This document shows positions 23,930 to 24,958 of a DNA stretch of 48,198 nucleotides, piece after piece; within the stretch, counting starts at the first letter, position 1, and each line of letters opens with the position of its first letter. The position numbers and the translations under genes were made by a program. The DNA comes from Planctomycetota bacterium (GTDB lineage: Bacteria; Planctomycetota; B15-G4; SIAN01), in contig VGYY01000002.1 of assembly GCA_016872815.1 (NCBI GenBank), forward strand, positions 1 through 48,198, in the 5' to 3' direction. The notes beneath the pieces were generated by a model. It ran no database searches and was not told the DNA's origin. It was given only the letters and a program-made list of their open reading frames with translations.

Positions 23930-23977
23930 CGGTCGCCCCCTCCCAACGTTGGCGACTCATTACCTTGCGCCGTGGCC

Positions 23978-23993
23978 TGTTTCACGTGAAACA
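23978..23993. promoter_or_regulatory. parS site 1 (perfect 16-bp palindrome TGTTTCACGTGAAACA)
   Basis: Exact match to the canonical parS consensus, 48 nt upstream of the parB start codon. Confidence 0.9.
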
Positions 23994-24150
23994 TCAACCG
24001 GACGAAGGAGTCTGCGGCGGCCAGCGCTCCGCTTCGAGGCCCGCGGAGCCATCGATGGCGCCGTGCCAGGACCGGGAACCGCCACGCGTCGGGTGGCGGC
24101 GAAGGGCACTGAACGGACAGCACCCAATGAAGTCAGCCGTCTGACCCGTT

Positions 24151-24310
24151 CTATTCGTGCGCCCCTGCTCCGGCTCGTTCTGCCGGCACATGACATCGCC
24201 GGAACACCGCCTTCCTTCCTCGGCGGGTCGCTGGACCCGCATCGTCGGCGCCGCGATTTCCCTCCTCGTCCTGCACCGACATCCCGTCGCCTCGCGACGG
24301 GGCTCATGAA
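24151..24310. repeat. Inverted-repeat arm A (160 bp)
   Basis: The reverse complement of 24151-24310 aligns without gaps to 24718-24877, with 139/160 identical by hand count. Confidence 0.9.
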
Positions 24311-24717
24311 TAGGGCGGGCGAATCAGCAGAGCGGCGCGGTGCACCACGCAGACGCCGCCCCGCCGTCACCGGCGCGGCCGGGGAACCGCGTCCGCACGT
24401 CCCGTCTCTGCCGCGTTCCGTTTCCTTCTTTCGGACCATCAAGAACGGTGGCGGGAATGACGCACGCTTCTTCACCGCGCGGCTCTCGGTGTCGCATCCA
24501 CGCGGATGCGCATTCGCCGCGACCACGATTCCCCGCCGAATGCATGAGCTCGCTGCGAAGCGCCGGGATTTGGTGCGCAACGATGAGTCAACCCGTGGCC
24601 CCAACGACGCCGCCCCTTCGACCCGCTGAGGAACCAACGCGGCTTTCCGGTGGTTTCGCGCGCCGACCTGAAGATCCGGCGCGGAGGCGCATGCATCGGG
24701 CGCGATCGCCCTTCTTC

Positions 24718-24877
24718 TTCATGAGCCCCGTCCGGAGACGACGGGCTGTCGGTGCAGGACGAGGACGAAAGTTGCGGCGCCGACGATGCGGATCCAGCGA
24801 CCCGCCGAGGAGGGAAGGCGGGGTTCCGACGCTGGCATGTGCCGACAGACCCAGCCGGAGCAGAGGCGCGCGGATAA
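24718..24877. repeat. Inverted-repeat arm B (160 bp)
   Basis: Partner of arm A. The arms are separated by 407 bp (24311-24717) and each faces outward toward a parS site. Confidence 0.9.
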
Positions 24878-24921
24878 GACGCGGTAGGGGACAAGACCGC
24901 GTCGGGCTACGATGCTCTCCG

Positions 24922-24937
24922 TGTTTCACGTGAAACA
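24922..24937. promoter_or_regulatory. parS site 2 (perfect TGTTTCACGTGAAACA)
   Basis: Exact canonical parS, 21 nt upstream of the acyP ATG. Confidence 0.9.
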
Positions 24938-24958
24938 CCCTCGCCGTGGGGGTCGCGG

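What the first reader, a model, noticed from the sequence alone, without database searches (positions are those of the whole stretch)
23930..24958. 1-kb non-coding locus with two perfect parS sites bracketing a 160-bp ungapped inverted repeat, between an orphan parB and acyP
Two exact TGTTTCACGTGAAACA sites lie at 23978-23993 and 24922-24937. They sit 48 nt upstream of the parB start codon and 21 nt upstream of the acyP start codon, and these two genes diverge.

Between the sites, 24151-24310 and 24718-24877 form inverted copies (139/160 identical with no indels, by hand count). They are separated by 407 bp of unique sequence that is rich in short palindromes (GCATCC-ACGC-GGATGC, ATGCAT, GAGCTC, GCATGC).

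Each arm points outward toward its parS site and then its gene. The arms could therefore be duplicated 5' leaders or promoters, a foldback or MITE-like element, or an architectural part of the centromere. Each arm contains local hairpins (for example CCCGTC..GACGGG and GTCGGTGC..GCGCCGAC). However, several stems are not conserved between the arms, so I cannot claim a structured RNA. No parA is adjacent to parB.
Basis: seen in the sequence. Interest (0 to 1): 0.7.

Follow-up and report, generated by a model that had tools for sequence, protein, structure and literature searches.

The report
Mobile repeat copies between two parS sites
The two perfect parS sites are a conserved, ordinary chromosome-segregation site next to the replication origin of an uncultured planctomycete, and the large inverted repeat between them comes from three copies of a small non-coding repeat that entered this spacer in this species only.

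Summary
There are two exact parS sites (23978-23993, 24922-24937) and inverted arms that are 139/160 identical (150/176 when extended). The locus is colinear in at least four independent metagenome assemblies.

The spacer is not unique sequence. A third, 70%-identical copy (about 24527-24691) lies in tandem with the right arm. The repeat is therefore a unit of about 185 nt, present three times.

The parS pair is the conserved feature. Six of seven related species (ParB 57-84% identical) keep two parS sites between acyP and parB. dnaA and dnaN lie 15-17 kb away. None of the seven relatives has the unit.

A copy 88% identical to the left arm sits between terC and a HEAT-repeat gene in another Planctomycetota MAG. 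That MAG's own parS spacer lacks the unit. Three orthologous terC-HEAT junctions are empty, with gaps of 22-79 nt. Housekeeping genes of the two genomes are only 72-82% identical.

Best reading: a standard ParB/parS centromere whose spacer was colonised by a low-copy, hairpin-rich, MITE-like mobile repeat. The inverted repeat is a by-product. A mobile small-RNA gene remains a rival. Interest is moderate to low.

The parts
23054..23929 (-). parB (291 aa), a canonical chromosomal ParB
   Evidence: Pfam ParB_N 4e-31, HTH_ParB 4e-27, ParB_C 7e-11. The GERR motif is visible in the translation.
23930..24065 (-). parB-proximal block conserved in relatives; candidate parB promoter and 5' UTR, and it contains the left parS
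   Evidence: 69% identity over 174 nt to the sister species L013. Shorter matches of 63-71% to L016, L020, L021 and L025, ending at about 23992-23995.
23978..23993 (.). Left parS, exact TGTTTCACGTGAAACA, 48 nt upstream of the parB start
   Evidence: A parS lies 50-130 nt upstream of parB in every relative.
24141..24330 (+). Repeat unit L (left arm; core 24147-24322). The strand is the arbitrary 'inward' sense.
   Evidence: the repeat finder I1. CM score 213 bits. Closing helix/TIR CCCGTTCTATTCGTGCGCCCC / GGGGCTCATGAATAGGGCGGG; fold z = -4.2.
24331..24518 (.). Central spacer of about 190 nt with no detected homologue
   Evidence: No match in relatives or elsewhere. No coding periodicity.
24519..24708 (-). 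Repeat unit C (third, diverged copy; core 24527-24691), in tandem with unit R
   Evidence: blastn 70% over 168 nt, E 7e-14. nhmmer E 3e-52, although this copy is part of the profile. Alignments.
24698..24887 (-). Repeat unit R (right arm; core 24706-24881)
   Evidence: the repeat finder I1. CM score 187 bits. The terminal helix has decayed to 15/21 pairs by hand count on alignment A1; score 12 of the 18 modelled terminal pairs as standard.
24900..24921 (+). Conserved block GGGCTACGAT just outside the right parS; candidate -10 region of acyP (inferred)
   Evidence: Aligned to L013 and L016.
24922..24937 (.). Right parS, exact TGTTTCACGTGAAACA, 21 nt upstream of the acyP start
   Evidence: A second parS lies 441-760 nt from the first in six of seven relatives.
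24959..25306 (+). Acylphosphatase gene, divergent from parB
   Evidence: Pfam PF00708, 6e-17. Synteny is conserved in all relatives.
41673..41701 (+). Unit-like fragment (terminal hairpin plus CATGAA end) in the dnaA-dnaN spacer. Possibly a relic copy, possibly chance.
   Evidence: nhmmer E 9e-4. Pattern match with 0 mismatches. The CM gives only 9 bits.
39525..42873 (+). dnaA and dnaN (context: the replication origin region)
   Evidence: Pfam Bac_DnaA, DnaA_N and DNA_pol3_beta domains.

Best explanation
The locus has two layers.

Layer 1 is conserved and ordinary. It is the chromosome's ParB/parS centromere, 15-17 kb from dnaA-dnaN. One consensus parS sits at the 5' end of each of two divergent genes, parB and acyP. 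By analogy with characterised ParB systems, ParB dimers load at both sites as CTP-dependent clamps and spread over the spacer and flanks. Because each parS lies between a conserved promoter-like block and the start codon, ParB probably also dampens parB and acyP transcription. All of this is inferred.

Layer 2 is specific to this lineage. It is a non-coding, hairpin-rich repeat unit of about 185 bp with terminal inverted repeats of about 20 bp. It entered the parS-parS spacer after this species split from its closest sampled relative. It now has three copies there: one on the left, and two in tandem on the right in the opposite orientation.

The striking 176-bp inverted repeat is simply units L and R facing each other. 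The unit behaves as a low-copy mobile or horizontally copied element of the MITE kind. It is presumably moved in trans by a transposase not present in the window (inferred). It has no required role in the centromere. The arms still interact occasionally by short-patch gene conversion (inferred from a strain polymorphism).
For: Centromere layer:
- Exact parS occurs twice, with 0 expected by chance.
- ParB has canonical domains.
- dnaA, dnaN and gyrB are in the same window.
- Six of seven relatives with 57-84% ParB identity keep acyP<->parB synteny with two parS sites, spaced 441-760 nt. The seventh (L020) shows one by the pattern used.
- Only the parS-proximal blocks align between species.

Mobile-unit layer:
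- There is a third copy, and similarity stops at discrete unit ends.
- None of the seven relatives' spacers contains the unit, by blastn, nhmmer or CM.
- The only other hit among 185,579 species genomes is MAG VAR_34_metabat_283. It is 88% identical to unit L. It lies about 95 nt upstream of a HEAT-repeat gene with no parS nearby.
- That MAG's own parB-acyP spacer (L025) has two parS sites and no unit.
- Three orthologous loci have terC only 22-79 nt upstream of the HEAT gene, so these are empty sites. Homology resumes right after the unit's end.
- Core genes of the two genomes are only 72-82% identical at the DNA level. The 88% therefore implies recent transfer or strong constraint.
- Constraint is unlikely. 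Strain polymorphism is concentrated in the units: 9 variable sites in about 555 nt, against 4 in the 876 nt of parB and 1 in about 470 nt of other spacer.
- There are no protein homologues in any frame and no coding periodicity.
- Unit L has a terminal helix/TIR of 20/21 pairs.
- The unit sits at a contig end in the MAG, and six Logan contigs break inside unit L, as repeats typically cause.
Against: - Copy number is not shown to be high. Only one hit was found in species-representative genomes, and none beyond the locus itself in the metagenome or viral scans or in two protein-database searches. The exact-match pattern is strict, and the window's own genome is not in the genome collection.
- No target-site duplication could be established. 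The only candidate is an 8-of-9 match, GAA(G)TCAGC, around unit L.
- No partner transposase was found.
- The unit's interior is better conserved (84-95%) than its termini (63-81%). This is the reverse of typical MITEs.
- Termini and internal hairpins show 7 double-sided compensatory changes. This is more RNA-like.
Confidence: 0.6

Rival explanations
1. The units are paralogous genes for a small structured RNA. It would be transcribed on the 'inward' strand: unit L on the plus strand, units C and R on the minus strand. It would have a closing helix, four hairpins, and two exposed CU-rich stretches (UUCCUC, UCCUCG) that could pair with Shine-Dalgarno sequences. The gene family spreads by duplication and transfer, like 'sibling' or 'cuckoo' sRNAs.
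For: - The consensus fold on the inward strand has 4 compensatory pairs, against 1 on the other strand.
- With the closing helix added, 88% of cells pair and 7 pairs change on both sides (shuffles: mean 2.7, 0 of 500 reach 7). Slid controls pair only 36-45%.
- G-U versus A-C counts are 15 to 5, favouring the inward strand.
- The interior is more conserved than the termini.
- Cross-species identity of 88% exceeds that of housekeeping genes.
- UUCCUC is invariant in all four copies.
Against: - There are only four sequences, and the structure was derived from one of them.
- Only unit L folds better than shuffles (z = -4.2). Units R and C give z between -0.9 and +1.1.
- No sigma-70-like promoter was found, and no terminator at unit ends on the inward strand.
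- There is no Rfam match even at E = 10.
- Upstream flanks of the copies are not conserved.
- Distribution is sporadic, with empty orthologous sites.
- Strain polymorphism is elevated in the units.
- A common haplotype disrupts hairpin H2.
Confidence: 0.2
2. The inverted repeat is an architectural part of the centromere. For example, it could form a cruciform or be a protein-binding platform that shapes the ParB complex between the two parS sites.
For: - The repeat sits exactly between two perfect parS sites near the origin.
- A unit-like fragment also lies in the dnaA-dnaN spacer.
Against: - Seven related species keep the centromere locus, six of them with both parS sites, without the repeat.
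- The homologous unit in another MAG lies away from any parS, and that MAG's parS spacer lacks it.
- The arms have decayed to 85% identity, and the layout is asymmetric: 153 nt versus 40 nt from arm to parS.
Confidence: 0.06
3. The arms are duplicated 5' leaders or promoters that drive parB and acyP outward.
For: - Each arm lies upstream of one of the two divergent genes.
- On the outward strand, the unit C/R junction forms a terminator-like hairpin followed by TTCTTCTT.
Against: - The arms lie beyond parS and beyond the conserved gene-proximal blocks. Relatives express the same genes without them.
- There are three copies, not two.
- The homologue in L022 points the opposite way relative to its neighbouring gene.
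- No promoter-like sites were found.
Confidence: 0.05
4. The arms flank an invertible DNA switch, or the repeat is an assembly artefact.
For: - Inverted repeats bracket a segment of about 380 bp.
- Short-read Logan contigs break inside the left arm.
Against: - Four independent assemblies from different samples and pipelines show the same orientation at 99.6-99.7% identity.
- The longest identical run between the arms is 19 nt.
- No recombinase gene is nearby.
Confidence: 0.03

Closest known systems
Chromosomal ParB/parS (Spo0J-type) centromeres
   Same: - The 16-bp palindrome matches the widespread consensus TGTTNCACGTGAAACA exactly.
- ParB has three domains, including the GERR box.
- The site is origin-proximal.
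- parS lies next to parB itself.
   Different: - No parA is adjacent, nor anywhere in the 48-kb window.
- The clade-specific layout is two sites, one at the 5' end of parB and one at the 5' end of a divergent acylphosphatase gene.
Bacterial MITEs (for example Neisseria Correia elements, ERIC/IRU, RUP, Nezha)
   Same: - Size of 100-300 bp and non-coding.
- Terminal inverted repeats.
- Strong hairpin potential.
- Intergenic location.
- Presence/absence differences between close relatives, with empty sites.
- Adjacent or nested copies.
   Different: - Apparently low copy number.
- No demonstrable target-site duplication.
- No partner insertion sequence identified.
- Termini are less conserved than the interior.
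Multi-copy 'sibling' sRNAs with anti-Shine-Dalgarno loops (for example alphaproteobacterial CcsR/'cuckoo' RNAs; from my own knowledge, not checked in a paper here)
   Same: - Tandem or clustered paralogues.
- CU-rich exposed motifs.
- Appearance at varying loci.
   Different: - No Rfam hit.
- No promoter or terminator signals.
- Much longer, with a long closing helix.
- Expression unknown.
REP/BIME palindromic repeats (GTAG/CGTC-tagged; PMC3733652)
   Same: - GC-rich extragenic hairpins, often paired head-to-head.
- Hairpin H4 of the unit contains CGTC...GACG.
   Different: REPs are single stem-loops of 20-40 bp present in high copy number (PMC3733652). This unit is a composite of about 185 bp with several different hairpins.

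Membership tests
ParB/parS chromosomal centromere | 16-bp palindromic parS matching TGTTNCACGTGAAACA | tested here: met
   Two exact sites, 0 expected by chance.
ParB/parS chromosomal centromere | Cognate ParB with ParB_N (CTPase), HTH and C-terminal dimerisation domains | tested here: met
   GERRLLAAK is seen in the translation.
ParB/parS chromosomal centromere | Origin-proximal position | tested here: met
   dnaA starts 14.6 kb from the right parS, and the dnaA-dnaN spacer lies 16.3 kb from it.
ParB/parS chromosomal centromere | Conservation of the sites in related genomes | tested here: met
   Two parS sites in the same spacer in L013, L016, L017, L021, L025 and L026; one found in L020.
ParB/parS chromosomal centromere | Partner ParA ATPase encoded with parB | tested here: not met
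   No ParA/CbiA-type hit among the window's ORFs. It may be encoded elsewhere in the genome.
ParB/parS chromosomal centromere | ParB binds parS and spreads | not testable with these tools
   Needs ChIP-seq or in vitro binding.
MITE (non-autonomous DNA transposon) | Short and non-coding | tested here: met
   About 185 bp. No codon periodicity. No homologous protein in 5.8 billion or 1.84 billion sequences apart from ORFs of this same locus.
MITE (non-autonomous DNA transposon) | Terminal inverted repeats | tested here: inconclusive
   - Unit L: 20/21 pairs (17/22 identical as DNA).
- Unit C: about 17/19.
- Unit R: decayed to 15/21.
- The termini differ between copies and co-vary.
MITE (non-autonomous DNA transposon) | Target-site duplication | tested here: inconclusive
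   Only an 8-of-9 GAA(G)TCAGC match around unit L (read). Nothing clear for units R and C. The left end of the L022 copy is cut by the contig end.
MITE (non-autonomous DNA transposon) | Presence/absence between relatives, with identifiable empty sites | tested here: met
   The parS spacer is empty in seven relatives. The terC-HEAT junction is empty in three orthologous loci.
MITE (non-autonomous DNA transposon) | Many dispersed copies per genome | tested here: inconclusive
   Three clustered copies plus one fragment in 48 kb. Only one strict-pattern hit in the other MAG. The rest of this genome could not be searched.
MITE (non-autonomous DNA transposon) | Autonomous partner element with matching ends | not tested
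   No transposase is in the window or the fetched loci. Whole genomes were not available.
Structured small RNA family (Rfam or new) | Match to a curated covariance model | tested here: not met
   No hit at gathering thresholds. Only junk hits at E up to 10.
Structured small RNA family (Rfam or new) | Conserved secondary structure with covariation | tested here: inconclusive
   7 double-sided changes and 88% of cells paired, but only 4 sequences. Only one of three copies folds better than shuffles.
Structured small RNA family (Rfam or new) | Own promoter and terminator; expression | tested here: not met
   No sigma-70-like promoter was found. The only terminator-like sites are on the other strand or at the unit C/R junction. 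Expression is not testable here.
Invertible DNA switch | Both orientations present; recombinase gene nearby | tested here: not met
   One orientation in four full-length assemblies. No recombinase among the neighbouring genes.
REP/BIME | Single tagged stem-loop of 20-40 bp in high copy number | tested here: not met
   The unit is about 185 bp with several distinct hairpins. The family definition is from PMC3733652.

The most novel reading that the evidence does not exclude
The unit is a horizontally mobile gene for a structured small RNA of about 185 nt. It would have a co-varying closing helix and conserved CU-rich, anti-Shine-Dalgarno-like loops, and would be kept at 88% identity between genomes whose housekeeping genes are only 72-82% identical. 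Its clustering between the two parS sites, with a relic next to dnaN, would reflect targeting to, or function in, origin-proximal ParB-coated DNA. One possibility is convergent transcription, or hairpin roadblocks, that confine sliding ParB clamps.
Probability: 0.12. Interest if true: 0.6.

Novelty: new member of a known kind. Interest (0 to 1): 0.3.

Why it matters
Very little is known experimentally about chromosome segregation in Planctomycetota. A conserved layout of two parS sites framing the divergent parB and acyP promoters, with no parA nearby, gives a concrete centromere to test in this clade.

The repeat itself shows that the parS-parS spacer tolerates large insertions. The spacer roughly doubles in length with no loss of either site, which is informative about how little the spacer sequence matters for ParB loading.

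If the unit proved to be a mobile structured RNA rather than a MITE, it would be a new RNA family in a poorly explored phylum. As it stands, the finding is mostly explained by ordinary biology.

Tried and rejected
- Coding potential of the arms was rejected. There is no GC3 signal. A six-frame concatenate searched against 5.8 billion proteins, and a profile searched against 1.84 billion representatives, returned only spurious ORFs called at this same locus, P0121 and P0122.
- Segmental inverted duplication that included parS was rejected. The flank alignment is no better than shuffles (p = 0.38).
- Known RNA families, tRNA and tmRNA gave nothing.
- A DnaA-box link gave nothing. TTATCCACA and TTNTCCACA occur at chance level.
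- Two pattern scans of viral contigs gave 0 hits.
- The metagenome pattern scan returned only this locus. That collection evidently lacks other contigs known to carry the locus, so the negative result is weak.
- The covariance model search of 144 kb of related loci found no further copies. Its one 'significant' extra hit (L013 2698-2755) is just the generic terminator hairpin of parB matching the model's closing helix.
- The unit-like stretch upstream of dnaN could not be confirmed as a full copy. The CM gives 9 bits and the alignment is poor outside the last 45 nt or so.
- Literature searches timed out four times. Only one search succeeded, and it led to the REP paper that I read.

Full report
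**Observation**

- TGTTTCACGTGAAACA occurs exactly twice in the 48-kb window, at 23978-23993 and 24922-24937. No further site appears even with three mismatches, and none is expected by chance.
- The sites lie 48 nt upstream of parB (23054-23929, minus strand; ParB_N, HTH_ParB and ParB_C domains) and 21 nt upstream of a divergent acylphosphatase gene (24959-25306).
They extend to 176 nt at 85% identity, 24147-24322 against 24706-24881.
- The 1029-bp spacer has no codon periodicity, no tRNA and no Rfam match.
- The arrangement is not an assembly artefact. Four independent ENA and JGI assemblies from different samples are colinear with it at 99.6-99.7% identity.

**Correction to the observation**

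The sequence between the arms is not unique. blastn and nhmmer find a third copy of the arm at about 24527-24691. It is 70% identical to the left arm (E 7e-14), has the same orientation as the right arm, and directly abuts it.

The repeated thing is therefore a unit of about 185 nt present three times:
- L: 24141-24330
- C: 24519-24708
- R: 24698-24887

About 190 nt of unmatched spacer lies between L and C. Similarity stops at the unit ends; the flanks outside the arms align no better than shuffled sequence (p = 0.38). Units L and C each close with a terminal helix or inverted repeat of about 20 bp. In L this is 20 of 21 pairs, and L folds far better than shuffles (z = -4.2). Unit R has lost much of this helix.

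**Context**

The window is 71% G+C and carries dnaA (39525-41216), dnaN (41776-42873), a DciA-like gene and gyrB. The parS pair therefore lies 15-17 kb from the likely origin, as expected for a chromosomal centromere. No ParA-like protein is encoded among the window's ORFs. The closest named relative is a Planctomycetota MAG.

**What is conserved**

I fetched the parB loci of seven related species, with ParB 84, 74, 68, 67, 67, 66 and 57% identical to the window's.
- All seven keep the synteny metallophosphoesterase - hypothetical - acyP <-> parB - argG.
- Six of the seven have two parS sites in the acyP-parB spacer, 441-760 nt apart. One of them always lies 50-130 nt upstream of parB. The seventh (L020) shows one site with the pattern I used.
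- Between species, only the parS-proximal blocks align: window 23900-24065, and 24900-24937 including GGGCTACGAT. The rest of the spacer is unalignable.

The conserved functional feature is therefore the pair of parS sites at the two divergent gene starts. That ParB loads there, spreads, and probably autoregulates is inferred from what is known of ParB systems. It is not shown here.

**What is not conserved**

None of the seven relatives' spacers contains the unit, by blastn, nhmmer or a covariance model.

A strict pattern that matches all three copies was scanned over 185,579 species-representative genomes. It gave a single hit: contig JANNXA010000050 of MAG VAR_34_metabat_283.
- That copy is 88% identical to unit L over 135 nt.
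- It is cut by the contig end.
- It lies about 95 nt upstream of a HEAT-repeat gene, with no parS in 8 kb.
- The same MAG's parB-acyP locus is on another contig (L025). It has two parS sites 488 nt apart and no unit.

In three orthologous loci of the HEAT gene (72-79% protein identity), a terC gene ends only 22-79 nt upstream. There is no room for the unit, and homology to L022 resumes immediately after the unit's end. The unit has thus been inserted at two unrelated places in two lineages, with empty sites in their relatives.

Housekeeping genes of the two genomes are only 72-82% identical at the DNA level. An 88% identical non-coding unit therefore implies either recent transfer or strong constraint.

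**Constraint or mobility?**

Strain-level polymorphism argues against strong constraint. Across the assemblies, the three units carry 9 variable sites in about 555 nt. parB carries 4 in 876 nt, and the rest of the spacer carries 1 in about 470 nt.

Four of the nine sites form a cluster at 24222-24231. In that cluster the window's haplotype is identical to unit R, while most other assemblies differ. This is best explained by a short gene-conversion tract between copies.

The unit also sits at a contig end in the MAG, and six Logan contigs all stop at 24289 inside unit L. Repeats often cause such breaks, but I could not pin down the cause here.

**The RNA alternative**

Some data point to selection for pairing.
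- On the 'inward' strand the consensus fold has four hairpins and two exposed CU-rich stretches (UUCCUC, UCCUCG).
- With the closing helix added, 88% of cells pair. Seven pairs change on both sides, against 2.7 in shuffles, and 0 of 500 shuffles reach 7.
- G-U pairs outnumber A-C pairs 15 to 5 on that strand.
- The interior is more conserved (84-95%) than the termini (63-81%). This is unusual for MITE ends.

Against this:
- There are only four sequences, and the structure came from one of them.
- Only unit L folds better than shuffles.
- No promoter or terminator signals fit the units.
- The upstream flanks of the copies differ.
- A common haplotype breaks hairpin H2.
- The distribution is sporadic.

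The two ideas are not exclusive, since a mobile element can be transcribed. What I can support is the mobile, dispensable nature of the unit.

**Copy number**

I could not show high copy number. The metagenome scan returned only this locus, and that collection evidently lacks other contigs known to carry the locus. Viral scans were empty. Searches of two very large protein sets with translations of the unit found only ORFs called at this same locus. The rest of this organism's genome was not available.

A 29-nt stretch upstream of dnaN (41673-41701) matches the unit's last hairpin and its CATGAA end. The covariance model gives it only 9 bits, so it may be a relic copy or chance.

**Verdict**

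This is a standard origin-proximal ParB/parS centromere with a clade-specific two-site layout. In this species its spacer has been colonised by three copies of an undescribed, low-copy, MITE-like repeat. The inverted repeat is a by-product of two copies facing each other and is not part of the centromere.

The leader/promoter and architectural options are not. Confidence in this reading is about 0.6. The main rival, a mobile small-RNA gene family, is at about 0.2.

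Noticed in passing
window 39525-45720: dnaA, dnaN, a DciA-like ORF (42870-43232, weak Pfam hit) and gyrB form a classic origin-region cluster. 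The 559-nt dnaA-dnaN spacer has no canonical DnaA boxes by TTATCCACA or TTNTCCACA scans.
   Followed up: partly
window 41673-41701: TTCATGCGCCCCGTAGCGAGTCGGCGGGA (minus strand), 75 nt upstream of dnaN, matches the terminal hairpin and CATGAA end of the repeat unit. A good TAGAAT hexamer follows it on the plus strand. It could be a relic copy, a shared regulatory module, or chance (nhmmer E 9e-4, CM 9 bits).
   Followed up: partly
window 24222-24231: Four clustered SNPs (G/A, C/T, T/A, C/A) separate two strain haplotypes of the left arm. The window's haplotype equals the right arm over this stretch. This suggests short-patch gene conversion between the inverted copies, or from an unseen copy.
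   Followed up: partly
window 24289 (L004, L006-L010): Six Logan short-read contigs from different runs all end at exactly this base inside the left arm, in both haplotypes. No 30-mer shared with the other two copies explains it. The cause could be another genomic copy or a coverage drop at the GC-rich hairpin.
   Followed up: no
window 22996-23026 and 22800-23000: A perfect 12-bp hairpin (GACGCACGCCGA...TCGGCGTGCGTC) lies just after the parB stop. It is followed by an unusually AT-rich parB-argG spacer (GC 0.56) with an A8 run. The sister species has an 18-bp hairpin at the same place (L013 2698-2755).
   Followed up: partly
window 17900-22799: Arginine biosynthesis genes sit directly downstream of parB: argG, an argC-like semialdehyde dehydrogenase, a class-III aminotransferase and an amino-acid kinase. 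A conserved ORF of about 376-446 aa with no firm Pfam domain (20360-21700) is inserted between argG and argC in all relatives.
   Followed up: no
window 26804-28219: A conserved 471-aa protein with no Pfam hit, next to a sigma-70 gene, is syntenic in all relatives.
   Followed up: no
window 24903-24913; L013 1300-1320: The block GGGCTACGAT is conserved immediately outside the right parS in this species and in two relatives. TACGAT is a plausible -10 hexamer, which would place parS over the acyP transcription start.
   Followed up: no
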